A DNA stretch of 64,000 nt, taken from the NCBI GenBank assembly GCA_027488855.1, contig JAIYAV010000217.1, positions 9,197 through 73,196 on the forward strand, written 5' to 3'. The notes under the pieces were generated by a model, which saw nothing but the letters and a program-made list of their open reading frames with translations, was not told the origin of the DNA and did no database searches. Shown here piece after piece: positions 1 to 15,914 of the stretch (position 1 is its first letter; every line of letters begins with the position of its first letter). A program made the translations under genes and the position numbers. The stretch is from Saprospiraceae bacterium (lineage in GTDB: Bacteria > Bacteroidota > Bacteroidia > Chitinophagales > Saprospiraceae).

Positions 1-1557
1 GTAGAAGGTTTGTTGACTTCAGCCATCCGCAAACAACCTTTTTCAGTGCTGCTTTTTGACGAAATTGAAAAGGCGCATTCCAACTTTTTTGACCTCTTAC
101 TGCAACTGCTAGGTGAAGGCCGCCTCAGTGACAACCGGGGACGGGTGGCCGATTTTTGCAGCGCCATCATCATCATGACCACCAACCTCGGTGCCGATTC
201 CACGCGGCCAAAACTGGGCTTTGGTAACTCCAATCGCTCCGCCCAGGAACTATACCAGGAAGCCATACGCCGCTATTTCCGGCCAGAACTGGTCAACCGC
301 ATCGATCAAATCATTGCTTTTCAGTCCCTGGACAAAGAACTCATCCGGGCCATCGTTTCGCGTGAACTGGAGCAGTTCAAAAACCGCGATGGCGTCCGCT
401 ACCGCAAATTGGAATTGAGCATTCAGGACAATGCCCTGGAAAAACTAGCCGAAGAGGGTTTTCATCCCAAATACGGTGGCCGTCAATTGCAACGCGCCAT
501 CCGGGAACTGATTGCATTGCCGCTGGCCAACCAGCTGAACTTACACGACCCTACCGACAAACTCAAGGTACTGGTCAAAAGCAGCAAAGGAAAAGTAAAG
601 GTAGAAGTAGAACCCGAACCTACCCCACTGGAAGAACTCCTCGATGAATTCAACCTGCAGGATGCCGCTGATCAGGTCTCGGCCCTGCGGGCTTCGGCCA
701 TTGCTTTTAAAGAAAGCCATTTGTATACCTTGTTGTTGCAGGAATACGATGATTTAGAGGAAGAGAACAAAGAACAAGAGGGCAAAGATCCAGCTTATTC
801 TGCCCAAGCCGAAATCCGCAAAATGCAATTGATCGAGATTCGGGACAAGGTCGAAAGCCTGGTAGGCGAAGTCGAGAGCCTGGAGCAACGCTTGTGTTTG
901 GCGGTATTGGGTGAAGGAACCAGCGAAGAAGAGCTGGAACAGGTAGACCAATGGGAAGAAAAGTTTTTCCGCCTCAAAATAGAGATTTATCAGCAAGCCA
1001 ATCCTTCGGCCAACACGGCTTACCTGAGCATTTATGGCGATGCCTGCGAAAAGATGCGGCCAATTTATGCCATAATCTGCGCTGATAAAAACTTTGAAGT
1101 GACTTACACGGAAATTTGGTTCCGCGAATCCTTGTATTTCAGCCCAAATGAAGAAGGTAAAACATCGGAACAATACCTTTTGGTCGAGCAGGAAGAATTA
1201 TTTCAGTTCGCCCCTGAGTACAATGACCGCCTAGTTGGCTTAATCCTAAAAATCAATGGCCCAGCGGTGCAATTGTTTTTTAGTGGTGAAGAAGGAGTCC
1301 AAAAATGGCACAACATCCAACGTAAGGAACAATTCCAGGCCGAAATAAAAGTAAGTGAACAAAAAAACACGCCTCCACGGGGGATTCATTTGAAAAATTA
1401 TTTCAGCCGTTTGCCAGTTCGCCGTACCTTGGAGTTTCCACAAGTCAAAGACAATGTTTGGCGGATCAACCGACAAATCGTCGAAGATCAATACATCAAC
1501 TATCTCCTTTTTCAACTCGAACAGCAATTTAAATTGAATTTAGACAACCAATTTTGA
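1..1557 (+). CDS. Clp/Hsp100-type AAA+ ATPase, C-terminal part (5' end cut by the window edge) with a long non-canonical C-terminal extension
   Basis: Frame 1 is open from nt 1. 'LLFDEIEKAH..FDLLLQLLGEGRLSD..G..ADF..AIIIMTTNLG' matches the Walker B/sensor-1 region of the ClpA/B D2 module. 'LDKELIRAIV...YGGRQLQRAIRELI' matches the D2-small lid. About 330 further aa (acidic coiled-coil, then unknown) follow. Confidence 0.75.
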   Translation, partial: VEGLLTSAIRKQPFSVLLFDEIEKAHSNFFDLLLQLLGEGRLSDNRGRVADFCSAIIIMTTNLGADSTRPKLGFGNSNRSAQELYQEAIRRYFRPELVNRIDQIIAFQSLDKELIRAIVSRELEQFKNRDGVRYRKLELSIQDNALEKLAEEGFHPKYGGRQLQRAIRELIALPLANQLNLHDPTDKLKVLVKSSKGKVKVEVEPEPTPLEELLDEFNLQDAADQVSALRASAIAFKESHLYTLLLQEYDDLEEENKEQEGKDPAYSAQAEIRKMQLIEIRDKVESLVGEVESLEQRLCLAVLGEGTSEEELEQVDQWEEKFFRLKIEIYQQANPSANTAYLSIYGDACEKMRPIYAIICADKNFEVTYTEIWFRESLYFSPNEEGKTSEQYLLVEQEELFQFAPEYNDRLVGLILKINGPAVQLFFSGEEGVQKWHNIQRKEQFQAEIKVSEQKNTPPRGIHLKNYFSRLPVRRTLEFPQVKDNVWRINRQIVEDQYINYLLFQLEQQFKLNLDNQF

Positions 1558-1629
1558 CCTTTGTGCGTCTTAATTCCGTATTTGTTTTTAGACAGCCCCG
1601 AATACCCTGTTGGATCTAAAAGAATTGCA

Positions 1630-4181: not shown

Positions 4182-4898
4182 ATGATCATACCGACCTTGC
4201 AAGGTACCATCGATCGCAGAATCCTCATCAATTTCCAGGTTGAGCAGGAAGTTCTGAACAATTTTTTGCCCAAACCCTTCAAGGCGAAATTGGTCAATGG
4301 GAAAGGAATGGCGGGCATTTGTTTGATCCGACTAAAGGAAATCCGGCTCAAAGGTTTTCCGAAACAATTGGGAATAGCTTCAGAAAATGGTGCCCATCGC
4401 ATTGCGGTGGAATGGATTGAAAATGGGGTTCAAAAAGAGGGTGTCTACATCCCTCGTAGAGACACTTCATCCAAATTAAATGCTTTTGCCGGCGGAACCT
4501 TGTTTCCAGGAGTCCACCATTTGGCACAATTCGTAGTCAATGAATCGGCTGGAGCTTACGAAGTAGCCTTCAAAAGCGACGATGACACTACTCTATCGAT
4601 CAAAGCCCAAGAAACCCAAACCTGGCCTGCAGATAGTATTTTTGAGAACCTCTCTTGCGCTTCCGCCTTTTTTCAAAATGGCGCCTTGGGTTACTCGCCC
4701 GGCGGCAGTAATTTCCAGGGGATTGAGCTCAAAACCAATGACTGGAAGGTTCATCAATTAGCAGTGGTAGATGTTCAATCTAGTTTTTTTGAAAACGAAA
4801 AAGTTTTCCCCAAAGGTTCCGTAAAATTTGACAATGCCTTATTGATGAAAAACATTGAACACGAGTGGGTTGGACTAAAATCGATCGCTAAATCCTGA
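4182..4898 (+). CDS. Conserved hypothetical protein, possibly DUF2071 / acetoacetate-decarboxylase-like fold
   Basis: 238-aa ORF 8 nt after the upstream stop. The N-terminal pattern 'RILINFQV..EVL..FLP.PF.A.LVNGKGMAGICLIRL' resembles DUF2071. The family call is tentative. Confidence 0.4.
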   Translation: MIIPTLQGTIDRRILINFQVEQEVLNNFLPKPFKAKLVNGKGMAGICLIRLKEIRLKGFPKQLGIASENGAHRIAVEWIENGVQKEGVYIPRRDTSSKLNAFAGGTLFPGVHHLAQFVVNESAGAYEVAFKSDDDTTLSIKAQETQTWPADSIFENLSCASAFFQNGALGYSPGGSNFQGIELKTNDWKVHQLAVVDVQSSFFENEKVFPKGSVKFDNALLMKNIEHEWVGLKSIAKS

Positions 4899-5003
4899 TT
4901 GTCTCCTTATCTTAGACATAGCTAAAGTTTCCCCAAAAGGTGATTTATTTCCTTTTTGCTAGTATTTTGGCCTAAAGTTTCCTCAACAAATCAACCCATT
5001 GCC

Positions 5004-5261
5004 ATGGCCGCTAAAAAAATTGAAGAACAAACTACCGCCGAGTTGCGAAAATTGGCGAAGACGTACAAAATAATCACAGGTGTATACCTTGGAGCCTTCA
5101 TTGTATACATCGCAGCAATGCTTTATTCCGTCTCTACAGGTAAAGTAAGTACTGTACTGGTCGTGGTCATGGTGGCACTCATTACTACTTCGTTGCCCGT
5201 GAATATGATGCGGGCTAAGGTTAGTGCTGAATTGAAGCGGCGGGAGGAAGCGGCGGGATGA
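5004..5261 (+). CDS. Small membrane protein (two predicted TM helices)
   Basis: ATG at 5004 within ORF 4956..5261. The hydrophobic stretches 'ITGVYLGAFIVYIAAMLY' and 'VLVVVMVALITTSLPV' are flanked by charged ends. It is the last gene before the AT-rich island. Confidence 0.45.
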   Translation: MAAKKIEEQTTAELRKLAKTYKIITGVYLGAFIVYIAAMLYSVSTGKVSTVLVVVMVALITTSLPVNMMRAKVSAELKRREEAAG

Positions 5262-5392
5262 TGGTTGTAAAAAGGCAACTATCATTATGGCTACGGAACT
5301 CAGATAATTCTATAGCTATATCATTGGGTATATCTGCCTAAATGAAATTAATAAAAATAATTATTCATACAAGAAAAGACAAAATATTGCTC

Positions 5393-6580
5393 ATGGCGAA
5401 GTTCTTATCTTCATTTGCGTTCAAAAAATGTAAGCATCCTAATTATGAGTATATTTATCAAATTAACGCTTCATCGCTATTTCCAGATATAAATTTATTG
5501 GGAAAGCAGGTCACAGTCGCAGGATTGTCCATTAAACGATGCCTTGACTGTGGTACATTCCATTGGACAGAAGGCAATGAAGAACTAAAGCCCATTGTTC
5601 AAGAACAAATTATGTCTTTTTTAAAAGCATCTGATGATTTTTTAGATCAATCCTTGATATTTGGTGATTTTAAAAAGGCAAATCTACAGGTTATTGAACC
5701 GCCCACATCTTTTAAAAAGGTACTAGCAGAGGAAGCTGTCTTTACAATAAGCTCAACCAATATAAATCTTGTCGATGTAATTCTTCCTCACAATACAGAA
5801 CAAGGAATAAAACAGATATTCGCAAGTATCAAATATCAACATATAGTGAATGATGAATGGGGGTTCAACAAAGTAGATCCTGTAGGAACTGGAACAGTAA
5901 TATTGTTTTATGGACCATCAGGAACTGGAAAAACCCGATCAGCAGGAGCTATCGCCAATGAATTAGACATGCCCATGATTTCTGTCTCGCTAAAAGATTT
6001 GGAAAGTAGATTCATGGGGCAAACCCCAAAAAACATCGCTAAAGCTTTTGAGGAGGCAAACAAACAAAATGCTGTACTGTTTTTTGATGAAGCTGATACC
6101 GTTCTAGGAAAAAGGTTATCTTCAGTAACTACGGGAGTGGATAACGAAATAAATATGGAACGTTCAACTCTGCTCAAAGAACTTGAAGCGTTCTCAGGCA
6201 TTTGTATTTTCGCAACAAATTTTCAAGAGAATATAGATACCGCATTTCAAAGAAGAATTAATTATCACGTTTCATTTGAATTGCCTGATCCAATCACTCG
6301 AAAACGACTTTTAAGTTATTTCCTTATCGATAGCATTCCTCTTTTAGAGACAAAAGAGCATATTACTGATCAGATTGTGGAAGAAACTTCTGAATTTAGC
6401 GGAGGGGATATTGTACAGGCACTTCGACAAGGTTTCATTATTGCTTTAATGGAAAACCCCACTACCCCAAAGGTCAGTTTAGCCCATTTTATTGAAGGCA
6501 TAGCCAACTTAAAAAAAATAAAGCAAGCAATTGCTCAAAGAATGACTCAAACTATTTTTAACATCAAAAACAAACAATAA
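5393..6580 (+). CDS. Classic-clade AAA+ ATPase with a ~170-aa N-terminal Cys/His-containing domain (island gene 1)
   Basis: Walker A 'GPSGTGKT' (nt 5912-5935), Walker B 'VLFFDEAD', second region of homology 'FATNFQENIDTAFQRRI', and lid 'LPDPITRKRLL...FSGGDIVQA'. The N-terminal region has C-x-H ... C-x2-C-x3-H. An alternative start lies at 5342. Confidence 0.85.
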   Translation: MAKFLSSFAFKKCKHPNYEYIYQINASSLFPDINLLGKQVTVAGLSIKRCLDCGTFHWTEGNEELKPIVQEQIMSFLKASDDFLDQSLIFGDFKKANLQVIEPPTSFKKVLAEEAVFTISSTNINLVDVILPHNTEQGIKQIFASIKYQHIVNDEWGFNKVDPVGTGTVILFYGPSGTGKTRSAGAIANELDMPMISVSLKDLESRFMGQTPKNIAKAFEEANKQNAVLFFDEADTVLGKRLSSVTTGVDNEINMERSTLLKELEAFSGICIFATNFQENIDTAFQRRINYHVSFELPDPITRKRLLSYFLIDSIPLLETKEHITDQIVEETSEFSGGDIVQALRQGFIIALMENPTTPKVSLAHFIEGIANLKKIKQAIAQRMTQTIFNIKNKQ

Positions 6581-7590
6581 TGAGTTTAATGAACTGGATT
6601 AGACAAATAGCCATAAAAGTTAGAGATGTCGTTGTCTCAGCAGTTGTTGCAGCTTATGAAATAGGCAAAAAGGTTGTACATTATGTAAAGGAAGCAGTAA
6701 GGGCGGTTGTTGATTTTGGTGCCGAGTTGATAGAAAGATTTCTTAAAAAATTGGAAAAATTTGATATTTCCATACGTGTAGGAAATATTGAAATATCCTT
6801 CAAAGATAAAGGAATCCATGTGAATTCCTTCCAAATAGGGCTAATTGAAAAAATCTTAGAAACTATCAAGCTATTGGAAAGTGTAGAGACTTCAGAAATT
6901 TCTACAATTGAAGATTATTCAAGGATTAAAGTTTCAAGACAATTCTTGATGAAAATGATGCAGAAAACAGCCAGAGAGCTTGAAAGTATGAATGATACTG
7001 ATAAAGAATTTCTTGATTATGTTTACCAATTTTTAAAAGGCGAAATGGATTCACATTCATTGGAAGCTTTTGAAAAAAGTGTATTTGAAAGATATGGGAG
7101 AACCCTTCTTGAATTTGGCCTTGAGAAGATAAATAATTATTGGAAAAAACGTTACAGGAATATTGACCAGCGCATCGATATGTTGAGCACAGAACTCCGA
7201 AGAATAAAGCAAGAGTTCAGGGCTATAAATACCCTAATCAAAGCTGGTGCAGAAATTGAAGATCAAGACCTAGCTCGATTGGAACAACTTAAAACAGAAA
7301 TACCACAAAAAGAACAAGAAAAAGTAAAGCAAGAAGCGCATCTTGCTAAAACATATAAAATAACTTCCGTGATGGCCGGTTTATTAAAAATGGCAGATCG
7401 AGAGAGTAATATTCCTGATCATTTACGTACTTATTTTAAACCAGTTGCAGATATTATGGTGCGTTGGCAACAAAATGAAAATTTGAGCCTTGAAGAAGAA
7501 AACCTTCTTGATAATTTTGCTCAACTTTACTGGAACAGCAACGAAAATTTAAATTCGTTTGAAGAAGATGAACCTTTAGAATTTCATTAA
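6580..7590 (+). CDS. Hypothetical coiled-coil protein (island gene 2), translationally coupled to the AAA+ gene
   Basis: The start ATG (6580-6582) overlaps the upstream TAA (6578-6580) by 1 nt. The 336-aa product has an amphipathic N-terminus and a K/E/L-rich helical composition. I recognise no family. Confidence 0.7.
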   Translation: MSLMNWIRQIAIKVRDVVVSAVVAAYEIGKKVVHYVKEAVRAVVDFGAELIERFLKKLEKFDISIRVGNIEISFKDKGIHVNSFQIGLIEKILETIKLLESVETSEISTIEDYSRIKVSRQFLMKMMQKTARELESMNDTDKEFLDYVYQFLKGEMDSHSLEAFEKSVFERYGRTLLEFGLEKINNYWKKRYRNIDQRIDMLSTELRRIKQEFRAINTLIKAGAEIEDQDLARLEQLKTEIPQKEQEKVKQEAHLAKTYKITSVMAGLLKMADRESNIPDHLRTYFKPVADIMVRWQQNENLSLEEENLLDNFAQLYWNSNENLNSFEEDEPLEFH

Positions 7591-7613
7591 ACAACCATTA
7601 AAAATCTTAGGAT

Positions 7614-9005
7614 ATGAATAAGGTAAGTGCAATTGGCTATCTTATACCGAAAACGTCTTTTGAGTATCTTTTTTTTATTTTACCGCTGGTTTTATTTTTA
7701 ATAGGGTACTCTTATCGGTCTAAATTAGGTATTCTTTGGGAGCAAAAATTCAAAAATATTGGTCTAAAAAGCCGTGTATTAGGCATTATAAGTAGCCAAG
7801 AAATCATTGAAGCGACTACCCCGTCCCAGCAAAAATTTATCTATTCCCTCCCTGGTATGTTTTTAATAATCGGTCTTTTAGGGACTTTCTGGGGCCTTGG
7901 ACTGGGAATGGTAAAGATGGATGCAGCAATTAATTCAAGCGGAGAAGACATGATGTATAATTTAAAATCATCGCTGGCTGATCTAAGTGTTCAATTTAAA
8001 TCAAGTATTTGGGGGATATTATTCAATTTATTGACAAAAGTATTTTTTGGGAATATTCCCCAAATGCATCATGCATATATATTGCTTAAGCTAGACAAAC
8101 TAGCAGATGAAAAAGAGAGGCTTGAAAACGCTCACAAGGCTGGTCTTTTGGAAAAACTGTCCAATAACAATGCTCATTTACAAGAAGTAATAACAAATGG
8201 CTCTCTAAGTGTTCAACAAATTAAGGAACTCAATTCAAAGTATCAAAGTACAGTGGACGCCATAAATAATTTTAAAGAAGAGAATTCAGAAATTACTTTA
8301 AAGTTAAAAATCGCTGCGGAAGAGTTTACAGAAGGAGCAAAAAGCATGAACACCAGCATTGAATCCTATAAAGATGAAATGTCAATTGCATTTGGTAAAA
8401 TTGGTAGAATTATTTCAGACATTAAAGGGTTCATCGAAGCATCAAGATCTGCAATTGACACAAGTGTCCAAGCGTTAAAGGATGAGATAAAATTATCATT
8501 AAGCGATTTTTCAACAAGCATTTCTGGCACCTTAGGACAAGTTTCTCAAAGTTTAATGATTGCAACTGGGAGTATAGAAAGAGCTATTGAAGATTCTATG
8601 AAAATGGTCGGAGAAACATCTAAGACTAGCTCAGAATCTATTGAGATCGCAACATCCAGCTTAAAAGATCAAGTTGGAACCTTATCAAGCGAGCTTTCAC
8701 GTAACTTAGCTGAAGTAACCAGAATATTAAATGCATCACAAAAGCAAATGGACAGTCAAACAAGAATTCATGCAGAAGTAGCTTCATGGTTGGGCGGGTT
8801 AAACGAGAGCACAAATCGATATTATGACGACCTCGAAAAATTGCGGACGATAATCACCACTATGTCTAACGAAAAGGCCAATTTAATTGGAAACATGGCT
8901 TCGTTATTAGGCGCAACTGGAATAGTTTCAACTAGACTAGGCGAAATGGTTGAGGAACAAAAGAATTTAAATAGAATTTTATCCGACAAAAAAGATAATG
9001 AATAA
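7614..9005 (+). CDS. MotA/TolQ/ExbB-family channel-like membrane protein with a ~310-aa helical C-terminal tail (ZorA-like; island gene 3)
   Basis: Three N-terminal hydrophobic segments (aa ~17-34, 75-100, 128-146). 'LPGMFLIIGLLGTFWGLGLGM' resembles the MotA/ExbB 'GLLGTV.G' signature. The rest is a long S/T/E/K/I-rich predicted helix. The gene starts 23 nt after gene 2. Confidence 0.65.
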   Translation: MNKVSAIGYLIPKTSFEYLFFILPLVLFLIGYSYRSKLGILWEQKFKNIGLKSRVLGIISSQEIIEATTPSQQKFIYSLPGMFLIIGLLGTFWGLGLGMVKMDAAINSSGEDMMYNLKSSLADLSVQFKSSIWGILFNLLTKVFFGNIPQMHHAYILLKLDKLADEKERLENAHKAGLLEKLSNNNAHLQEVITNGSLSVQQIKELNSKYQSTVDAINNFKEENSEITLKLKIAAEEFTEGAKSMNTSIESYKDEMSIAFGKIGRIISDIKGFIEASRSAIDTSVQALKDEIKLSLSDFSTSISGTLGQVSQSLMIATGSIERAIEDSMKMVGETSKTSSESIEIATSSLKDQVGTLSSELSRNLAEVTRILNASQKQMDSQTRIHAEVASWLGGLNESTNRYYDDLEKLRTIITTMSNEKANLIGNMASLLGATGIVSTRLGEMVEEQKNLNRILSDKKDNE

Positions 9006-9011
9006 GCAGTT

Positions 9012-9617
9012 ATGGAAGATAATAACGAATGGATTTCCGTTGGTGACTTAATGGCAGGGGCAGTAGCAGTTGTAGCTATGATGTTTGCCATTACTTTGTT
9101 GCAAAACAAATTTAGCAATTTGTCATTTGACCCAACTGAGAGGAAAGAGCTAACCACATTTTTAAAAGATTTTTCCACCGAAATACAAGGAAGCCCTGGT
9201 CTAAGTGTAAACATTGAGCAGTTTAAGCTACACTTAGATGGTGAAGGATTTAACTCAGGGAGGTCATGCCTTTTATGGGGTGTATCAAATGCTTTGGAAA
9301 ATCTAAATAATAAATTAAGCGAGTTTATGCTTAATCACCGAGGTATAATCATTATAATTGAAGGGCATTCAGACACAACACCTATAAACGACGAAGTTAA
9401 GGATGATTGTAGGTGTAAAAAGCCATGCAAAAGTAACATAGAACTTTCCCTTGCTCGTGCTTTAGTGGCAAGAGATATTATCACAAATAACTGGAATACG
9501 TCAATGAAAGAACGTGTTCTAGTTCACGGTTATGGCTTCCATCACTATGATAAGAGTAAGTCTATGTCTGAAAATCGACGGGTGGAAATTTCATTTAATT
9601 TTTCACGAGTAAAATAG
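9012..9617 (+). CDS. MotB/OmpA-like peptidoglycan-binding membrane protein (ZorB-like; island gene 4)
   Basis: An N-terminal Asp precedes a single TM helix ('WISVGDLMAGAVAVVAMMFAITLL'). The C-terminal OmpA_C-like motifs are 'IIIIIEGHSDTTP', 'NIELSLARALVARD' and 'NRRVEISF'. The gene starts 6 nt after the MotA-like gene. Confidence 0.75.
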   Translation: MEDNNEWISVGDLMAGAVAVVAMMFAITLLQNKFSNLSFDPTERKELTTFLKDFSTEIQGSPGLSVNIEQFKLHLDGEGFNSGRSCLLWGVSNALENLNNKLSEFMLNHRGIIIIIEGHSDTTPINDEVKDDCRCKKPCKSNIELSLARALVARDIITNNWNTSMKERVLVHGYGFHHYDKSKSMSENRRVEISFNFSRVK

Positions 9618-9880
9618 CAGAATGACAAGAGGCGAAAGTCTGCTTCACCATTTGAGTCCAGATTTTAGCTGCAAGATGGCAAACACGTTTCGTCATACGC
9701 TATAATGATTTCACATTTCTCTCTAATAACAAAGAGTAACAGCCAAAAATTAACTCTAATCACCTTACAAAAAGGTATTACTGAAAATAAGTACAGTATT
9801 TTTTTGTTACTTAATGCCAAATGGGTTAACTTTACCTATCTTAAATATTATTGTTACAACCTATATCAAATCACTGGTAA

Positions 9881-10966
9881 ATGATAAATTTTGCTTTCTC
9901 AAGGTTCAATAGGATAATAATCCATAGAGTACACCAAAAACAACGAGCTGATGACCACTCATTTGTAGAGCATGAAGATCAACTAGTCATCGCAGATTCA
10001 GAAGCCCAAGACATTATAAAACGTCGTGTAACCGATGCGTGTGGTCGGCAGTCCAGATCTTTTAAACTTCAAATCTCGCAAGTTGAAAATGGCTCTTTTT
10101 TTAGTTTAGCCAAAGATATATTTAGTTTAAATGATCAAGATTTTATAACTAGAAGTAAAGAGGTTGCATCACTTTTAGGTAGTGCTCAAAAAAGGGCTAA
10201 TATTCCAGGTGGTGTTCTGATTGTCATTGATGGTGTAACAGATGATAATCTGAATTTCATTTTAGTTGTAAAAGCGGAATTGCAGGAAGCCTTCAAGACA
10301 AGTTTAGATTCATCTACTAATCAACGGCAAATTGAGGTCTTGAAAGAGATTTTTCTTTCTCCCGCTGAAAAGTTCTTTAAAATTGGTTTGCTTAGGCAGG
10401 CAATAAACGAAAATGAAACCTACCCAAATAACGATTTTTCTTCCATGATTTATGATGACCAATTTAGACCAGGTGGAGAACCTGCCGAGTTTTTTTACAA
10501 AGATTTTTTAGGCTTTAGTATCGATAAAAATGAAAAAATACTTACGAAAAGCTTCTTTGAGGACACAAAGAATATTATCCTAAGCCATGCGGAATCCCCT
10601 GAAGTAAAAAGAGATTGTTTGTCTGCATTGCGAACACTTTATAAGCAGGACCAAACTGGAATAATTGATCCTATCGATTTCGGGGCCCGCTATCTGCCAG
10701 ATGGAATAAAGGGACAGTATTCGGCAAATGTTTTGAGCCATCCGAAATACAATCGACCATTTACCAAAGATTTAGCTCTTATGGGCCGAGAATTGACGAA
10801 ACGAATAATGTCATTTCGTAACAAAGTTAACGTGACAGCCCCTGAAGAGCTATTTGATGAAAATGTAACTGTAATAAGAACAATTGAGGAAGCTACTGAA
10901 GCATTGAGTGAGAATGAATTATTCACTTTACTCAAAATAAAAGGCATACCCTACGACAATGATTGA
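9881..10966 (+). CDS. NA37/YejK (NdpA)-like nucleoid-associated protein
   Basis: 'FSRFNRIIIHRVHQK' N-terminus, 'ANIPGGVLIVIDGV...NFILVVKAEL', 'KFFKIGLL' and 'FFYKDFLGFSI' match landmarks of the 37-kDa nucleoid-associated protein family. The ~360 aa size fits. Confidence 0.6.
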   Translation: MINFAFSRFNRIIIHRVHQKQRADDHSFVEHEDQLVIADSEAQDIIKRRVTDACGRQSRSFKLQISQVENGSFFSLAKDIFSLNDQDFITRSKEVASLLGSAQKRANIPGGVLIVIDGVTDDNLNFILVVKAELQEAFKTSLDSSTNQRQIEVLKEIFLSPAEKFFKIGLLRQAINENETYPNNDFSSMIYDDQFRPGGEPAEFFYKDFLGFSIDKNEKILTKSFFEDTKNIILSHAESPEVKRDCLSALRTLYKQDQTGIIDPIDFGARYLPDGIKGQYSANVLSHPKYNRPFTKDLALMGRELTKRIMSFRNKVNVTAPEELFDENVTVIRTIEEATEALSENELFTLLKIKGIPYDND

Positions 10967-11963
10967 TTTCCGGACTAAAGAGGAGGATCTCATTTCAGAG
11001 TATAGCGCTTTGAAGCCACTGCTTATTAGTTGGGGCGAGTTTGTCGATAAAACAATTCTCCAAATATTAAGCGATAATGGCTTTGATCTGTCAAGATTGC
11101 AAATATATCCTAAACATAGAATAAAAACTGATAATTCATTAATCAGACGAGCTTTTTATAGAGACATTGAAAGTTCATCTGATCCATTAAGAAAAATAGA
11201 AGACAAGTTAGGAACGAGATTAGTTGTTACAACTTTAGATGATGTAATGAAAATTCGTGAGATAATCACAGAACACGATGTTTTTTGGAAATCTAGAGAA
11301 AGTAGAGGGGTTGATAAGCACCTTTCCAAACCTAAGGAGTTTGATTACCAATCATTACATCTTAACTTAACTCCAAATAATTCAGTAATTGGTTTTGAAA
11401 AAAAACCTAAATCTGAACGAGAGCGTTATATTTGTGAATTACAAGTGAGAACTTTACTCCAACATGCTTTTGCTCAAGTCGCTCACGATACTATTTACAA
11501 AGGGGTTTTTGGCTCAGATAGCCAGTTAGTAAGAATTTTAAGTAGGGGAGCTGCATTAATGGAAGTCACTGATGAACATTTTTGTCAAGCTTATAAAATC
11601 ATGGAGAGAGAAAAAACTTATGAAAAAAACTATGTAAAACAACTCATCACATTATCAAAAGAAAGACTTGACTTTGAATTCCAAGCAAAGCAAGTTGATA
11701 CTGTGTTGACAGATGAATTATTTCAGATTTTTGATGCAAAAAACATTGATATCGCAGAGGTGGAGCGCACTATAATAACTAATAAAGATTTAATAATCAA
11801 CACCTTAAACAAAATAGACTCTTACATGAAAACGCAACCCGTTTTGCTTTTTGTTATTCATTTAATTTTTTCAAATGCGTACAAAATTAAAAACAGTTGG
11901 CACCTTGAAGAGGACATTTTGAAGGATCTTTTCTTTAAATTAGGCTTTTCATACCTGCGTTAA
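10959..11963 (+). CDS. Stand-alone RelA/SpoT-domain nucleotidyltransferase (small alarmone synthetase / toxSAS-like) with a ~120-aa C-terminal extension
   Basis: Synthetase motifs 'HRIKTDNSLIRR', 'KLGTRLVVTTLDDV', 'FDYQSLHLNL' and 'ELQVRTLLQHAFAQVAHDTIYK'. There is no HD, TGS or ACT domain. The ATG at 10959 overlaps the upstream TGA (10964-10966) by 8 nt. Confidence 0.85.
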   Translation: MIDFRTKEEDLISEYSALKPLLISWGEFVDKTILQILSDNGFDLSRLQIYPKHRIKTDNSLIRRAFYRDIESSSDPLRKIEDKLGTRLVVTTLDDVMKIREIITEHDVFWKSRESRGVDKHLSKPKEFDYQSLHLNLTPNNSVIGFEKKPKSERERYICELQVRTLLQHAFAQVAHDTIYKGVFGSDSQLVRILSRGAALMEVTDEHFCQAYKIMEREKTYEKNYVKQLITLSKERLDFEFQAKQVDTVLTDELFQIFDAKNIDIAEVERTIITNKDLIINTLNKIDSYMKTQPVLLFVIHLIFSNAYKIKNSWHLEEDILKDLFFKLGFSYLR

Positions 11964-12013
11964 CCGTTTAATCTCATTAAAAATTTGGCTACGCAGGCGA
12001 TGATCCATCAACA

Positions 12014-12625
12014 ATGGCAAGACTTACTTTTAATCTTGCCAAAATAAATCACCAAAACATGTCTCTGAATAACAATTGGAATCGAGATATTTTGGCTAAA
12101 GCTTGGCACTTTGCAACTATTAAACATAGTGGGCAAACCTATGGAGGGCGTATCCCTGATCAATACATAGAATACATAAATCATCTGAGCAGTGTTGCAA
12201 TGGAATCAATGTGGGTTTTAGCTAACTCAAATGATGACTATAATGCAGACCTTTTGCTCCAATGCGCTCTTTTGCATGATACTCTAGAAGATACACCAAC
12301 CGAATATCACGAATTATTAGTAACGTTTGGGCCAGATGTTGCTAATGGTGTACAGTCCTTGACAAAAAATAAAACGCTTATCAACGACCAAGACCAAATG
12401 CTCGACAGCCTTCAACGCATCCAAGCCCAACCCAAAGAAATCTGGATGGTCAAAATGGCCGACCGCATCACCAACCTGTACCACCCACCTTATTATTGGG
12501 ACAAAACCAAAATCGCCGCTTATCGCAGCGAAGGCCAGGTTATTTACGATCATCTGGCCCCAGCCGATGCGCTCATGGCCCAGCGTTTGGCCGATAAAAT
12601 TGAAGCCTACCAACAATTTTTGTAA
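12014..12625 (+). CDS. HD-domain (p)ppGpp-hydrolase-like protein (small alarmone hydrolase, SAH/Mesh1-like)
   Basis: 'AWHFATIKHSGQTYGG..P..YIEYINHL', 'ALLHDTLEDTPT', 'FGPDVANGVQSLTK' and 'KMADRITNL' match the SpoT/Mesh1 HD hydrolase fold at single-domain size. An alternative start lies at 12059. Confidence 0.8.
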   Translation: MARLTFNLAKINHQNMSLNNNWNRDILAKAWHFATIKHSGQTYGGRIPDQYIEYINHLSSVAMESMWVLANSNDDYNADLLLQCALLHDTLEDTPTEYHELLVTFGPDVANGVQSLTKNKTLINDQDQMLDSLQRIQAQPKEIWMVKMADRITNLYHPPYYWDKTKIAAYRSEGQVIYDHLAPADALMAQRLADKIEAYQQFL

Positions 12626-12735
12626 TTTTTTGAGTTTTTTTCATTTCTGCGGAACGCTTTTTCGAACCCAACACACATAGGTATGAATGCAGATTTATCC
12701 CACTGCATGATCCATTAACCTAAAAACCTGTTGAA

Positions 12736-13236
12736 ATGAAAAAGTTATTTTTCCTGCTTGTATTGGCCATCAGTGCCAGTTTTGTATCTGCCCAAACTCA
12801 ATTCTTCAGTCCCCTAAGCGCTGTTCCGGTAGGCCCCAACGGCCCTGCCTCCAACAAGGTAAAAGTAAGTGCCTATTGCTGCCCCAGTGCGGCCCTCGAA
12901 ATTTCAACCAATGTACCAGTTGGTGAAAATGACTTCCAATGGGTCAATATTCCACTGGATGGGCTGAATGCAGGTATGATCGGCAAACTGGTGGTTTGCT
13001 ATCAAATCCAGGGAGCAGGTGGTTCTTACATATCACAAGTCCGCTTGACTGAGATGATGGCGCCCAATGCTGCTGCAGTAAAAGTTGAGGATGGCACAGA
13101 TCTGAACTCCACCGTCCCTACCTGTTTTTCGATTAAAGCAGGCTACGCCGTGAATGGTACTACTACCTTAGCCCTTAAAGTTGTAATGCGCCCCGGTGAC
13201 AAAATCATCATTGGAGGCATCACTATTGCTAGATAA
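12736..13236 (+). CDS. Secreted hypothetical protein
   Basis: Signal peptide 'MKKLFFLLVLAISASFVSAQ'. The composition matches the host. I recognise no family. Confidence 0.6.
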   Translation: MKKLFFLLVLAISASFVSAQTQFFSPLSAVPVGPNGPASNKVKVSAYCCPSAALEISTNVPVGENDFQWVNIPLDGLNAGMIGKLVVCYQIQGAGGSYISQVRLTEMMAPNAAAVKVEDGTDLNSTVPTCFSIKAGYAVNGTTTLALKVVMRPGDKIIIGGITIAR

Positions 13237-13399
13237 TCCCAAACTTCTTATTCCCCATCCCATTTGCATATCCATGCACTGCGCAAGCATTTTGCTTACC
13301 CGCAGTGCATTTTTTTTGCACCTAGTGAAAAAGGAGCTGTTTTTTGTACTATTTTTCCATCTGAATTAATCCAACCTATAACTTACTTATATCTACCTG

Positions 13400-14836
13400 A
13401 TGAAACAGCTGCTCAGCTTTGGCTTCTGTCTACTTTTTGGCCAAATTTTATTGGCCCAACAACACGCGGAGCAAAACCACTCCAAATACGTGCCACCCAG
13501 CGACCCGCAGGTGCAACAAAAACTGCAACAATGGCAAACGGTAAAATTCGGCCTCCTGATGCACTGGGGCACCTACAGCCAATGGGGAGTTGTGGAAAGT
13601 TGGAGCCTCTGCCCCGAAGATGAAGGCTGGTGCGAACGCCGTGGGCCTTACGCCAACGATTGGTATGGCTACAAAAAAGCCTACGAAAACCTGCAATCCA
13701 CTTTTAATCCGACTGATTTTAACCCCGACAAATGGGCCACTGCCGCCAAAGCAGCGGGCATGAAATACCTGGTGTTCACCACCAAGCACCACGATGGTTT
13801 TTGTATGTTTGATACCAAGCAGACCGATTACAGCGTGATGAATAGCCCTTTTGGCAAAAGCCCTCGGGCCAACATTGCCAAGGAGGTCTTTAAGTCCTTC
13901 CGCGATCAGGATTTTATGATTGGGGCTTATTTTTCCAAACCAGATTGGCATACTCCGGATTATTGGTGGCCCTATTTCCCACCCAAGGATCGCAATTCAA
14001 GTTATCCTCCGAAGAAATATCCTGAAAAATGGGAGAAGTTCAAAACCTTCACCTACAACCAGATCGAAGAGCTGATGCGGGATTACGGGAAGATGGACAT
14101 CCTTTGGCTCGATGGTGGTTGGGTGCGCCCATTCAGTACGATCGACACTACGGTATCCTGGCAAAAAACCATTCCTTTTGATCAGGACATTGATATGCCC
14201 AAAATTGCGGCTATGGCGCGTACGCATCAGCCAGGTTTGTTGGTGGTCGACCGCACAGTGACCGGCCCGTATGAAAATTACGTAACGCCCGAGCAACAAA
14301 TCCCCAGTCAATACATGCCCATTCCCTGGGAAACTTGCCTGACCATGGGTGATTCATGGAGTTACATCCCCAAAGAAAATTTCAAGCCCGCCCGCAAATT
14401 GATTCACATCCTGGTTGATGTGGTCTCCAAAAATGGCAACCTTTTGCTCAACATTGCGCCCAGCCCGCAGGGTGATTTCCACCCCGAGGCTTACGATCGT
14501 TTGAAAGAAATTGGCAACTGGATGGGCGTCAATTCCGAAGCGATTTATGGAACGACTGGCGACAAAGACCTTGGCCCACAAGGCAAATTGGTTTTTACCC
14601 ATAAAGGCAAAACCGTTTATGCCATTTACCGAGCGGATGAAGGTGAAGCTTTGCCAACAAAAATTGACATTAAAAACCTGCCCCTGGGCAAAAAAGCCAC
14701 CGTCAATCTCTTGGGCCATAAGGATGCCTTGCGCTGGAGTACTGAAAATGGCACTACGAGTATTGTGGTTCCTGAAAAAACTGCTAAACTTGTGTCCAAC
14801 AGCTACGCCTACGTGTTTAAAATTACCGATTTTTAG
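13400..14836 (+). CDS. Alpha-L-fucosidase, glycoside hydrolase family 29
   Basis: A signal peptide is followed by 'KFGLLMHWGTYSQWG', 'YLVFTTKHHDGFCMFDT' and 'ILWLDGGW', which are typical GH29 motifs. Confidence 0.85.
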   Translation: MKQLLSFGFCLLFGQILLAQQHAEQNHSKYVPPSDPQVQQKLQQWQTVKFGLLMHWGTYSQWGVVESWSLCPEDEGWCERRGPYANDWYGYKKAYENLQSTFNPTDFNPDKWATAAKAAGMKYLVFTTKHHDGFCMFDTKQTDYSVMNSPFGKSPRANIAKEVFKSFRDQDFMIGAYFSKPDWHTPDYWWPYFPPKDRNSSYPPKKYPEKWEKFKTFTYNQIEELMRDYGKMDILWLDGGWVRPFSTIDTTVSWQKTIPFDQDIDMPKIAAMARTHQPGLLVVDRTVTGPYENYVTPEQQIPSQYMPIPWETCLTMGDSWSYIPKENFKPARKLIHILVDVVSKNGNLLLNIAPSPQGDFHPEAYDRLKEIGNWMGVNSEAIYGTTGDKDLGPQGKLVFTHKGKTVYAIYRADEGEALPTKIDIKNLPLGKKATVNLLGHKDALRWSTENGTTSIVVPEKTAKLVSNSYAYVFKITDF

Positions 14837-14867
14837 CTTGTTCCGAACCAAAAAACACTATTAACCG

Positions 14868-15914
14868 ATGCAAACTAGAAGAAATTTTTTGAGGTGGTCA
14901 GCACTGGGCCTACCTTTCGTCTCATTTAGCCAAACCCTGGCCAAAAGTAAAGTATCAGCCGCCACAAAGCCAATCGTCGTGTCGACCTGGGACAGCGGAC
15001 TGCCCGTCAATGCGGTAGCCTGGAAAGTTTTGCGCGAGCAAAACGGTCGCGCCCTTGATGCGGTAGAAGCTGGGGCACGCTCTATCGAAGACAGCATCAA
15101 TTGCTGCGTAGGCTTGGGCGGCAACCCCGACCGCGACGGGATCGTCACCCTCGATGCTTGCATCATGGATGAAAAAGCCAATTGTGGGTCAGTGGCTGGC
15201 TTGTCTTACATCAAACACCCCATTTCCGTAGCGCGTAAATTGATGGAAACCACTCCCCACGTGATGCTAGTGGGTGAAGGGGCACTGCACTTTGCCTTGG
15301 CCAATGGCTTTCCCAAGGAGTCGGGAAAATTGTCGAAAGATGCCGAAAAGGCCTACAAAGCCTGGCTAAAAAAATCGGAATACAAACCGGTCATCAACAT
15401 AGAACAGCAACAAATCAACGCCAAGAAGAACAAGGGAAATGGCCCATTTGCGCCCAACAGATTCGAAGATGGCAGCCCCAACCACGATACCATGGGCACC
15501 ATTGCCATGGACGCCGCTGGAAACCTTTCGGGTGCTTGTACCACCAGTGGGATGGCCTTCAAGCTCCATGGCCGGGTCGGTGACTCACCGATTATTGGTG
15601 CAGGTTTGTTTGTAGACAATGAAGTGGGTGCTGTAACTGGCTCAGGACAAGGGGAAGAGGTGATCCGCGTAGCGGGTGCAGCCCTGATCGTGGAAATGAT
15701 GCGAATGGGTAAATCACCCAAAGAGGCTTGTAAAATCGCGATTGAAAGAATTGTAAAAATCAACCCGGAAAAGGCTAAAACCTTCCAGGTTGGTTTCATC
15801 GCCATCAATAAAGCGGGTGAATACGGTGCTTATTCGATTCAACCTGGCTTCAGCTATTCGGTGACGATGGCTGAAGATGGAGGGAAGGTGTATATGGCGG
15901 AGAGTCAGCTATGA
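14868..15914 (+). CDS. N4-(beta-N-acetylglucosaminyl)-L-asparaginase (glycosylasparaginase, Ntn hydrolase)
   Basis: Twin-arginine-like leader 'MQTRRNFLRWSALG'. Autoprocessing/nucleophile region 'HDTMGTIAMD', then 'HGRVGDSPIIGAGLFVDN...GAVTGSGQGEE'. Confidence 0.85.
   Translation: MQTRRNFLRWSALGLPFVSFSQTLAKSKVSAATKPIVVSTWDSGLPVNAVAWKVLREQNGRALDAVEAGARSIEDSINCCVGLGGNPDRDGIVTLDACIMDEKANCGSVAGLSYIKHPISVARKLMETTPHVMLVGEGALHFALANGFPKESGKLSKDAEKAYKAWLKKSEYKPVINIEQQQINAKKNKGNGPFAPNRFEDGSPNHDTMGTIAMDAAGNLSGACTTSGMAFKLHGRVGDSPIIGAGLFVDNEVGAVTGSGQGEEVIRVAGAALIVEMMRMGKSPKEACKIAIERIVKINPEKAKTFQVGFIAINKAGEYGAYSIQPGFSYSVTMAEDGGKVYMAESQL

What the first reader, a model, noticed from the sequence alone, without database searches (positions are those of the whole stretch)
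9881..12625. NA37 nucleoid-associated protein coupled to a toxSAS-like RelA/SpoT synthetase, followed by an HD alarmone hydrolase
SEEN:
- The NA37/YejK-like ORF overlaps the start of the next gene by 8 nt (ATG at 10959, TGA at 10964-10966).
- That next gene is a synthetase-only RelA/SpoT protein with all core motifs intact ('HRIKTDNSL', 'GTRLVV', 'DYQSLHLNL', 'ELQVRTLLQHAFAQVAHD').
- An HD hydrolase ORF follows 50 nt downstream ('KHSGQTYGG', 'ALLHDTLEDT', 'MADRITNL').

ESTABLISHED:
- Stand-alone RelA/SpoT synthetases of the toxSAS type (FaRel, FaRel2, PhRel, PhRel2, CapRel) are toxins.
- They either make (pp)pApp or pyrophosphorylate tRNA 3' ends.
- Some are neutralised by adjacent small alarmone hydrolases.
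- CapRel-type proteins act in phage defence.

INFERENCE:
- This may be a three-part module in which a DNA- or nucleoid-binding protein senses or tethers. The synthetase would be the effector and the HD enzyme the antidote or reset.
- I am not aware of a described system that pairs NA37 with a toxSAS.
Basis: partly seen in the sequence, partly recalled or inferred. Interest (0 to 1): 0.8.

Follow-up and report, generated by a model that had tools for sequence, protein, structure and literature searches.

The report
NA37–alarmone synthetase phage-defence pair (PANGU type I)
The nucleoid-protein gene and the overlapping RelA/SpoT synthetase gene are a genuine, widely conserved two-gene unit that matches the recently described "type I PANGU" anti-phage system, whereas the HD hydrolase next door is an ordinary resident gene of the host chromosome and not a third component.

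Summary
The three ORFs, their motifs and the 8-nt overlap are real. NA37 (9881-10966) and the RelA/SpoT protein (10959-11963) form an obligate pair. In 84 of 85 loci encoding a relative of the synthetase, across at least 8 phyla, an NA37 gene lies immediately upstream on the same strand. The junction is usually a 4- or 8-nt overlap, and the two proteins' distances covary (r = 0.93).

This architecture was described in April 2026 (bioRxiv 10.64898/2026.04.06.716658) as type I PANGU. There, a YejK-like nucleoid protein (Pag1A) is released when phage nucleases degrade the genome. It binds the C-terminal domain of a GRel-type synthetase (Pag1B) and switches on (pp)pGpp synthesis, aborting infection.

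The window's pair has the same domain layout, an intact active site (G-loop Tyr130) and homology to an E. coli SLATT–NA37–synthetase locus. It sits in a low-GC defence islet.

The HD gene is not part of the system: it is absent at all 85 loci. In a close relative of this genome it sits on the same conserved backbone next to different cargo.

A separate four-gene Zorya-like block (IetA-like AAA, coiled-coil protein, ZorA-like, ZorB-like) lies just upstream.

Verdict: a new, Bacteroidota-clade member of a known kind, of moderate-to-low interest.

The parts
9881..10966 (+). Pag1A-like nucleoid-associated protein (NA37/YejK family), 361 aa, 41.2 kDa; proposed infection sensor and activator
   Evidence: Pfam NA37 E 4.5e-11. 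It is 28% identical over its full length (E 3e-44) to the annotated nucleoid-associated protein of the E. coli SCU-102 SLATT-NA37-synthetase locus. It keeps 30 of the 31 columns that are at least 85% conserved among 78 partner proteins. An NA37 gene lies upstream of the synthetase in 84 of 85 loci.
10959..11963 (+). Pag1B/GRel-like small alarmone synthetase, 334 aa, 39.3 kDa; proposed effector. Layout: synthetase core about res 45-185, linker helices 188-237, helical C-terminal domain 248-327.
   Evidence: Pfam RelA_SpoT E 6e-15. Invariant K56, D82, R87, Y130, H134, E160, Q162. AF2 model pLDDT 88.5. Foldseek: RelQ/RelP E 2e-8 and CapRel 3.5e-6, N-terminal part only. It is 37% identical (E 4e-34) to the E. 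coli SCU-102 protein. The C-terminal domain is homologous to the gammaproteobacterial type: hhalign 98.2%, E 2.7e-14.
10959..10966 (+). 8-nt gene overlap ATGATTGA (translational coupling of the pair)
   Evidence: Sequence. In 80 of 84 related loci the junction lies within -23 to +9 nt: -4 nt in 41 loci and -8 nt in 17.
9618..9880 (+). 263-nt intergenic spacer separating the pair from the upstream ZorB-like gene; presumed own promoter region
   Evidence: ORF map. No convincing sigma-70 or Bacteroidota-type consensus was found, so the promoter is inferred only. The upstream block occurs elsewhere without the pair, and the pair without the block.

Best explanation
Window 9881-11963 encodes a two-gene abortive-infection system of the type I PANGU kind.

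Shown here:
- An NA37/YejK-family protein and a RelA/SpoT synthetase are translationally coupled.
- The synthetase has an intact active site and an extra helical C-terminal domain.
- The two genes are inherited and diverge as a unit across many phyla.
- They are homologous to an E. coli SLATT-NA37-synthetase locus.
- They lie in a horizontally acquired low-GC defence islet.

Inferred from the published Ferrimonas and Pseudomonas systems:
- In uninfected cells the NA37 dimer is bound to chromosomal DNA, and the synthetase is an inactive homo-oligomer.
- When a phage nuclease degrades the genome, NA37 is released and binds the synthetase's C-terminal domain.
- The resulting 2:1 complex is active. 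It transfers pyrophosphate from ATP to GTP, GDP or GMP.
- The resulting (pp)pGpp burst and NTP drain stop transcription and translation, so the infected cell does not yield phage.

The HD_4 gene at 12059-12625 is a resident small alarmone hydrolase of the host chromosome. It happens to flank the insertion hot spot and is not a dedicated component. It could still degrade the product, as any cellular (pp)pGpp hydrolase could.
For: Domains.

Pair conservation:
- All seven distinct gene-called contexts, from 69% down to 28% identity, show NA37 then RSH.
- NA37 lies upstream in 84 of 85 loci. These span Bacteroidota, Bacillota, Alpha-, Beta- and Gammaproteobacteria, Desulfobacterota, Campylobacterota, Spirochaetota, Verrucomicrobiota and Rhodothermota.
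- Junctions are within -23 to +9 nt in 80 of 84 loci.
- NA37 and RSH distance matrices correlate: r = 0.93, Mantel p = 0.001, n = 77.

Architecture:
- The AF2 model has a synthetase core, long helices and a helical C-terminal domain.
- The G-loop Tyr is at 130, against Y129 in Pag1B(Ff).
- Protein sizes are 41.2 and 39.3 kDa, against 40.6 and 37.5 kDa for the Pseudomonas proteins.
- The C-terminal domain is homologous to the gamma-type domain.

Link to the described family:
- The preprint defines type I as NAP + GRel toxSAS, present in more than 5 phyla, sporadic in Bacteroidota, and sometimes with a SLATT gene.
- Its E. coli construct was made from 'NA37 and gRel'.
- E. coli SCU-102 carries integrase-SLATT-NAP-synthetase, homologous to the window's pair.
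- The family is dominated by Gammaproteobacteria, with at least 2536 clusters.

Defence context:
- The islet 5342-11963 has GC 33-36% against 44-51% in the flanks.
- Neighbours elsewhere include GmrSD, PLD, type I and type III R-M, MmeI, NACHT and AAA_15/RloB.

HD excluded:
- Absent at all 85 loci.
- Synteny with L093/L094 places HD on the conserved backbone.
Against: - No sequence of an experimentally tested Pag1A or Pag1B could be obtained. PDB 9UFP is not in the PDB copies, and a residue fingerprint found no match. The link to the validated proteins is therefore indirect.
- Identity to gammaproteobacterial members is only about 30%.
- The C-terminal domain is only mildly acidic (net -4, pI 5.0; family median -3). 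The 'DNA-mimic' property is not demonstrated by sequence.
- The mechanism rests on a single, not yet peer-reviewed preprint and on systems tested in E. coli.
- Nothing here shows activity, product identity or trigger for this Bacteroidota clade.
- No promoter or terminator could be assigned.
Confidence: 0.8

Rival explanations
1. Three-part module. NA37 senses or tethers, the synthetase is the toxic effector, and the adjacent HD hydrolase is a dedicated antidote or reset, analogous to FaRel with its SAH antitoxin ATfaRel.
For: - The HD_4 protein has intact hydrolase motifs and lies 95 nt downstream on the same strand.
- Small alarmone hydrolases neutralise all tested toxSAS (Jimmy et al. 2020).
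- The 5' two-thirds of the HD gene is more diverged from the close relative than its 3' third (about 72% against 87% nt identity) and has lower GC. That part may have been exchanged together with the islet.
Against: - No HD gene lies within 6-9 kb of the pair in any of 85 loci, nor at the closest relatives at 69% and 57% identity.
- HD homologs at 71-80% identity lie in the same backbone (166-aa ORF, fucosidase, asparaginase) with no NA37 or RSH nearby.
- The HD family is very large and widespread as a stand-alone gene.
- The published system needs only two genes and is not toxic without an antidote.
Confidence: 0.05
2. Classical type II toxin-antitoxin pair. The synthetase is a constitutively toxic toxSAS, making (pp)pApp or pyrophosphorylating tRNA, and the NA37 protein is its protein antitoxin.
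For: - Bicistronic, overlapping genes with the upstream gene as partner are typical of toxSAS toxin-antitoxin loci.
- The synthetase fold also matches CapRel.
- There is a weak PADLOC match to the candidate PDC-S33.
Against: - For homologous gammaproteobacterial systems the preprint reports no toxicity of Pag1B alone. It also reports activation rather than neutralisation by Pag1A, no tRNA labelling, and (pp)pGpp as the product.
- The family profile scores RelQ/RelP alarmone synthetases (E 1e-12) far better than the tRNA-modifying CapRel (1e-5).
- The same active-site constellation is invariant in both the Bacteroidota-type and gamma-type alignments.
Confidence: 0.07
3. Housekeeping stress-response pair. 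A RelQ/RelP-like small alarmone synthetase is regulated by a nucleoid protein for normal physiology, with no role in phage defence.
For: The best sequence and structural matches in the PDB are RelQ/RelP. NA37/YejK is a general nucleoid protein in E. coli.
Against: - The distribution is patchy: only 2 of 5426 complete E. coli genomes, on an integrase islet next to tRNA-Thr.
- The pair also occurs on plasmids.
- Here it sits in a low-GC islet that is absent from a close relative.
- Its neighbours elsewhere are restriction-modification and other defence genes.
- It carries an extra C-terminal domain that RelQ/RelP lack.
Confidence: 0.04
4. Composite Zorya-like system. The upstream AAA, coiled-coil, ZorA-like and ZorB-like genes and the NA37-synthetase pair form one six-gene unit, with the membrane motor as sensor and the synthetase as effector.
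For: All six genes are on the same strand in one low-GC islet. In known Zorya systems the soluble effector genes follow zorAB.
Against: - A 263-nt gap separates the two blocks.
- No ZorA, ZorB, AAA or coiled-coil homolog occurs at any of 85 NA37-RSH loci.
- No NA37 or RSH occurs at any of 80 ZorA-like loci. At least six of those repeat the AAA-(coiled-coil)-ZorA-ZorB order on their own.
Confidence: 0.03

Closest known systems
Type I PANGU (Pag1A NAP + Pag1B/GRel toxSAS), bioRxiv 10.64898/2026.04.06.716658
   Same: - Two overlapping genes, with the YejK/NA37-family protein upstream of a RelA/SpoT synthetase.
- The synthetase has an N-terminal synthetase domain, a helical linker and a C-terminal partner-binding domain.
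- The G-loop Tyr is at an equivalent position (130 against 129).
- Protein sizes are similar.
- The location is a defence island.
- The distribution crosses phyla, and the two proteins co-evolve.
   Different: - This is a Bacteroidota clade, only about 30% identical to the gammaproteobacterial members, and untested experimentally.
- The C-terminal domain is only mildly acidic by net charge.
- There is no SLATT gene.
- It was not compared directly with the tested Ferrimonas and Pseudomonas proteins, which were unavailable.
CapRel(SJ46), fused toxSAS toxin-antitoxin (PDB 7ZTB)
   Same: A stand-alone RelA/SpoT synthetase fold with a regulatory C-terminal extension, used in abortive infection. Foldseek E 3.5e-6.
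   Different: CapRel senses phage capsid protein directly through its own C-terminal domain and pyrophosphorylates tRNA. Here the C-terminal domain has no structural match to CapRel's, a separate NA37 partner is obligatory, and the published product of the family is (pp)pGpp.
FaRel-ATfaRel (toxSAS with a small alarmone hydrolase antitoxin), Jimmy et al. 2020
   Same: A RelA/SpoT synthetase gene with an HD alarmone hydrolase gene next to it.
   Different: In FaRel loci the hydrolase is a conserved operon partner. Here the hydrolase is a core-genome gene, absent from all 85 related loci.
RelQ/RelP housekeeping small alarmone synthetases (PDB 5DEC, 6EWZ)
   Same: These are the best sequence and structure matches for the catalytic domain (TM about 0.8 normalised to the target). 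They also inactivate by homotetramer formation and produce (pp)pGpp.
   Different: They are about 210-aa single-domain enzymes of the core genome with no NA37 partner. The window protein has an additional 150 residues and lies on a mobile defence islet.
Type II PANGU (NAP + transmembrane effector) and the YejK-domain system validated by DefensePredictor (Science 2026, PMC13092281)
   Same: An NA37/YejK-family protein is used as a defence component.
   Different: The effector is different: a membrane protein or another protein, rather than a RelA/SpoT synthetase.

Membership tests
Type I PANGU | Bicistronic operon: NAP gene and effector gene adjacent on the same strand, less than 40 bp apart | tested here: met
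   8-nt overlap. The same arrangement holds in 80 of 84 related loci.
Type I PANGU | PagA is a YejK-like nucleoid-associated protein (Pfam NA37) | tested here: met
   PF04245: E 4.5e-11, 43.2 bits against a cut-off of 24.6. Full-length homology to the E. coli SCU-102 NAP, E 3e-44.
Type I PANGU | PagB has an N-terminal RelA/SpoT synthetase (toxSYNTH) domain with intact catalytic residues, including the G-loop tyrosine | tested here: met
   PF04607 E 6e-15. K56, D82, R87, Y130, H134, E160 and Q162 are invariant. Y130 corresponds to Y129 of Pag1B(Ff).
Type I PANGU | PagB has an alpha-helical linker and a C-terminal partner-binding (DMK) domain homologous to that of other family members | tested here: met
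   AF2 model: helices 188-237 and a helical domain 248-327, pLDDT 88.5. C-terminal profiles, Bacteroidota-type against gamma-type: hhalign 98.2%, E 2.7e-14.
Type I PANGU | The DMK domain is acidic and DNA-mimicking | tested here: inconclusive
   Net charge -4, pI 5.0, 15% Asp+Glu. The family median is -3 and gamma members range from -3 to +4. Net charge does not capture surface distribution, and surface electrostatics were not computed.
Type I PANGU | PagB belongs to the GRel subfamily of small alarmone synthetases (Atkinson/Hauryliuk HMM classification) | not testable with these tools
   No GRel HMM or reference sequence is available. Indirect evidence: full-length relatives are dominated by Gammaproteobacteria. 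The window proteins are homologous to the E. coli NAP-synthetase pair, and the preprint's E. coli construct was 'NA37 and gRel'.
Type I PANGU | Direct similarity to the tested Pag1A/Pag1B proteins or to structure 9UFP | not testable with these tools
   9UFP is absent from both PDB copies. The residue fingerprint found no match.
Type I PANGU | Genetic linkage to known defence genes | tested here: met
   A Zorya-like block lies in the same islet. Relatives lie next to GmrSD, PLD, HsdR, NACHT, AAA_15/RloB, type III R-M and MmeI genes.
Type I PANGU | Both genes required for phage defence; NAP activates (pp)pGpp synthesis; triggered by genome degradation | not testable with these tools
   Experimental features. 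Known only for the Ferrimonas, Pseudomonas and E. coli systems.
toxSAS toxin-antitoxin module with SAH antitoxin (FaRel type) | The alarmone hydrolase gene is a conserved operon partner of the synthetase | tested here: not met
   HD is absent at all 85 loci. HD is syntenic with the backbone genes in relatives that lack the pair.
CapRel-type fused toxSAS | C-terminal pseudo-zinc-finger antitoxin domain fused to the synthetase; no separate partner | tested here: not met
   Against 7ZTB only the synthetase core is similar in sequence (profile positions 34-168). The structural match is loose (about 235 columns, rmsd 10.9, TM 0.41). An obligate NA37 partner is present.
Zorya (ZorAB + soluble effectors) | The effector genes co-occur with zorAB | tested here: not met
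   No ZorA or ZorB at any of 85 NA37-RSH loci. No NA37 or RSH at any of 80 ZorA-like loci.
RelQ/RelP housekeeping SAS | Single-domain protein of about 210 aa, core-genome gene, no dedicated protein partner | tested here: not met
   334 aa with an extra C-terminal domain. Islet-borne. Obligate NA37 partner.

The most novel reading that the evidence does not exclude
In this lineage the resident small alarmone hydrolase immediately downstream has been co-opted as a built-in attenuator or reset of the PANGU (pp)pGpp burst.

The HD gene is mosaic. Its 5' two-thirds is islet-like in GC and in divergence. This would then reflect co-transfer of the hydrolase's front end with the defence islet, giving a locally evolved three-component variant.

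A second unexcluded reading is that this Bacteroidota clade, at about 30% identity to tested systems, makes a different nucleotide product.
Probability: 0.07. Interest if true: 0.5.

Novelty: new member of a known kind. Interest (0 to 1): 0.3.

Why it matters
The finding itself was sound.

The added value here is independent comparative support for that still unreviewed description:
- The NA37-synthetase linkage is near-universal: 84 of 85 loci across at least 8 phyla.
- The two genes are translationally coupled.
- The two proteins co-evolve strongly.

It also identifies a divergent Bacteroidota clade that nobody has tested. Such a clade could show whether nucleoid-release sensing works outside Proteobacteria.

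The work also removes a tempting over-interpretation. An alarmone hydrolase next to an alarmone synthetase looks like an antidote, but here the adjacency comes from insertion at a chromosomal hot spot.

The neighbouring AAA-coiled-coil-ZorA-ZorB block may be the less-charted object in this islet.

Tried and rejected
1. **Direct comparison with the tested Pag1A/Pag1B proteins.**
   - PDB 9UFP is in neither PDB copy.
   - The paper's supplementary files are not held.
   - A gammaproteobacterial profile search returned at least 2536 clusters, but Ferrimonas and P. aeruginosa were not among the 120 listed.
   - A seven-residue positional fingerprint from the preprint found no match.
   - An E. coli NAP-synthetase locus was used as a proxy instead.
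2. **Promoter and terminator assignment.** The sigma-70 scan gave no more hits than its shuffles, and no Bacteroidota-type TAnnTTTG element lies in the intergenic regions. The inverted repeat at 12015-12041 has no T-run on the + strand.
3. **Looking up the window's own record.** The exact-protein look-up found nothing on record.
4. **Close relatives of the ZorA-like protein.** The first metagenome scan found none. An alignment-based scan was needed.
5. **Net charge as a test of the 'DNA-mimic' domain.** It was uninformative, because the gamma-type members are no more acidic than the window protein.
6. **Phage collection.** It contains no full-length relative of the synthetase.
7. **NA37 structure prediction.** Not attempted. 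NA37 homologs came from fetched loci, which the prediction tool does not accept, and a single-sequence model would be unreliable.
Full report
**Observation.** The three ORFs exist as described: 9881-10966 (361 aa), 10959-11963 (334 aa) and 12014-12625 (203 aa), all on the + strand. The first two overlap by 8 nt (ATGATTGA). Pfam assigns NA37 (E 4.5e-11, above the gathering score), RelA_SpoT (E 6e-15) and HD_4 (E 4e-7). All quoted motifs are present.

Two refinements apply. First, the synthetase has no hydrolase domain, but it carries about 150 residues after the catalytic core. Second, the HD gene most likely starts at Met16 (12059). The database protein is 188 aa, homologs are 184-190 aa, and homology to relatives begins there. 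The gap to the synthetase is therefore 95 nt, not 50.

**Surroundings.** The pair lies at the right end of a low-GC islet, 5342-11963. The islet has GC 33-36% and GC3 26-32%. The flanks have GC 44-51% and GC3 46-60%.

The left part of the islet is a tightly packed four-gene block:
- an AAA ATPase resembling the defence ATPase IetA (PADLOC E 1e-35);
- a 336-aa coiled-coil protein with no family match;
- a ZorA-like protein with a MotA/ExbB-type head and a long tail;
- a ZorB-like OmpA-domain protein.

A 263-nt spacer separates this block from NA37. The HD gene has intermediate GC (42%).

**The pair is an obligate unit.** The synthetase has full-length relatives only. In gene-called contexts from 69% down to 28% identity, an NA37 gene always lies directly upstream.

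A scan of one genome per species found 232 species with a relative. The best 80 loci span the following groups, all matched over residues of about 5-331:
- Bacteroidota;
- Bacillota;
- Alpha-, Beta- and Gammaproteobacteria;
- Desulfobacterota;
- Campylobacterota;
- Spirochaetota;
- Verrucomicrobiota;
- Rhodothermota.

Searching six-frame ORFs of all 85 loci with the window's proteins gave NA37 immediately upstream on the same strand in 84. The exception, L034, is a 1.5-kb contig with no room for an upstream gene.

The NA37 stop and the synthetase start lie within -23 to +9 nt in 80 of 84 loci. The commonest junctions are a 4-nt overlap (41 loci) and an 8-nt overlap (17 loci). Pairwise distances of the two proteins correlate with r = 0.93 (Mantel p = 0.001, n = 77).

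**The HD gene is not part of it.** No HD, ZorA, ZorB, AAA or coiled-coil homolog occurs in any of the 85 loci. The HD protein belongs to a very large family of stand-alone HD_4 hydrolases (at least 1360 hits).

Contigs L093/L094 carry an HD that is 80% identical, and they come from a close relative of the window's organism:
- Window 1-4173 (ClpB-like, DUF5686) matches them at 90-98% amino-acid identity.
- Window 12059-15900 (HD, 166-aa ORF, fucosidase, asparaginase) matches them at 84-96%, apart from the 5' part of HD at about 70%.
- Between these flanks the relative carries flavodoxin, WYL and Ro60/TROVE genes instead of the islet.

A second relative, with HD at 71% identity, has HD followed by the asparaginase gene and again no pair. 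HD is therefore a core-genome gene flanking a variable hot spot.

One nuance remains. Nucleotide identity to L093 is about 72% over 12026-12397 and about 87% from 12398 onward, and GC rises at the same place. A recombination breakpoint therefore probably lies inside HD, as expected for islet exchange by flanking homology.

**What the pair is.** A full-text search found a preprint of 6 April 2026 (bioRxiv 10.64898/2026.04.06.716658). It defines PANGU as bicistronic defence operons of a YejK-like nucleoid-associated protein (PagA) plus an effector (PagB).

In type I the effector is a GRel-subfamily small alarmone synthetase. It has an N-terminal synthetase domain, a helical linker and a C-terminal 'DMK' domain. 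For the Ferrimonas and Pseudomonas systems the authors report the following:
- Both genes are needed for defence, and neither is toxic alone.
- Pag1B alone is an inactive tetramer.
- A Pag1A dimer binds the DMK domain (Kd about 9 nM), giving a 2:1 complex.
- That complex makes pppGpp, ppGpp or pGpp from ATP plus GTP, GDP or GMP.
- There is no tRNA pyrophosphorylation.
- The G-loop Tyr129 is essential.
- The trigger is host-genome degradation by T4 EndoII, which releases Pag1A from the nucleoid.

According to the preprint, type I occurs in more than five phyla, is sporadic in Bacteroidota, and sometimes includes a SLATT gene. DefensePredictor (Science 2026, PMC13092281) independently lists a YejK domain among newly validated defence domains.

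**Membership tests.**
- The AlphaFold2 model of the window's synthetase (pLDDT 88.5) shows a synthetase core, two long helices (188-237) and a helical domain (248-327).
- Foldseek matches only the N-terminal roughly 210 residues: RelQ/RelP at E 2e-8 (TM about 0.8 normalised to the target) and CapRel at E 3.5e-6.
- Active-site residues are invariant, and the G-loop Tyr is Y130.
- The same constellation is invariant in a gammaproteobacterial alignment.
- The C-terminal domains of Bacteroidota-type and gamma-type members are homologous: hhalign 98.2%, E 2.7e-14.
- The preprint's E. coli system was built from 'NA37 and gRel'.
- In 5426 complete E. coli genomes the pair occurs in full in two. In strain SCU-102 it reads tRNA-Thr, integrase, SLATT, nucleoid-associated protein, GTP pyrophosphokinase.
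- The window's proteins match that pair at E 4e-34 (synthetase, 37% identity over residues 20-215) and E 3e-44 (NA37, 28% identity over the full length).
- Annotated 'RelA/SpoT | nucleoid-associated protein' pairs also occur on Klebsiella, Ochrobactrum and Clostridium plasmids.

Three things could not be tested. No reference was available for formal GRel classification. No reference was available for direct comparison with Pag1A/Pag1B or 9UFP. The acidity of the C-terminal domain is only mild (net -4, pI 5.0) and no different from the gamma members.

**Mechanism.** The best-supported reading is a two-gene abortive-infection system that works as published for type I PANGU. NA37 is a chromosome-bound sentinel. 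Its release on genome degradation activates the synthetase through the C-terminal domain, producing a (pp)pGpp burst and NTP depletion.

The architecture, linkage, co-evolution and homology are shown here. The biochemical steps are inferred from one preprint on relatives that are about 30% identical. The host's adjacent hydrolase could degrade the product, as any such enzyme could, but nothing indicates a dedicated role.

**The upstream block is separate.** The ZorA-like protein is rare. Among 1.8 billion representatives, 27 score at or below 1e-10 and only 2 at or below 1e-30, one of them the query itself. An alignment-based metagenome scan found the same order elsewhere:
- AAA, coiled-coil, ZorA, ZorB in L096 and L099, and in L113 as far as that contig reaches (it ends within the ZorA-like ORF, so no ZorB was seen);
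- AAA, an unmatched ORF, ZorA, ZorB in L101, L102 and L111.

NA37 and RSH are never nearby. The Zorya papers read recognise only three subtypes, none with an AAA partner. This may be an undescribed Zorya-like variant, but I did not pursue it further.

**Verdict.** The system is a new, divergent member of a kind described months ago, and interest is moderate to low.

Noticed in passing
window 5342-9617 (+): A four-gene block in the same low-GC islet:
- IetA-like AAA ATPase, 5342-6580;
- a 336-aa coiled-coil protein, 6580-7590, whose start overlaps the AAA stop by 1 nt;
- a ZorA-like protein, 7614-9005;
- a ZorB-like protein, 9012-9617.

The same gene order recurs in metagenome loci L096, L099 and L113 (L113 ends within ZorA). 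L101, L102 and L111 have AAA, an unmatched ORF, ZorA and ZorB. None has NA37 or RSH nearby. The Zorya papers I read list only three subtypes and none has an AAA partner, so this may be an undescribed Zorya-like variant.
   Followed up: partly
window 12026-12625: The HD hydrolase gene looks mosaic. Nucleotide identity to the close relative L093 is about 72% up to about 12397 and about 87% from there on, and GC rises at the same point. This suggests the recombination breakpoint of the islet exchange lies inside the gene.
   Followed up: partly
window 4185-12390 versus L093 4780-9330: This is a chromosomal hot spot between the DUF5686 gene and the HD gene. The window carries DUF2071, a small membrane ORF, the Zorya-like block and the PANGU pair. 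The relative carries flavodoxin, a WYL regulator and a Ro60/TROVE-vWA gene in the same place.
   Followed up: partly
window 12015-12041: A perfect 8-bp inverted repeat, TGGCAAGA(11 nt)TCTTGCCA, lies between the synthetase stop and the likely HD start. No T-run follows it on the + strand. Its role (terminator, islet boundary or chance) was not determined.
   Followed up: no
L074 2000-4080 (-), Photobacterium sp. Alg240-V54: Two further RelA/SpoT-like ORFs (E 8e-12 and 3e-9 to the window's synthetase) lie on the opposite strand just upstream of that genome's NA37-synthetase pair.
   Followed up: no
L042, L045, L072, L089/L090: Several related loci have the NA37 gene or the synthetase gene split into two ORFs, so they look pseudogenised. 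Alternatively these are assembly errors.
   Followed up: no
L176 7516-10090 (E. coli SCU-102, NZ_CP051753.1): In E. coli the NA37-synthetase pair is preceded by a SLATT-domain gene. It sits on an integrase islet at tRNA-Thr, next to DprA and RecQ-family genes. Only 2 of 5426 complete E. coli genomes carry the full pair.
   Followed up: partly
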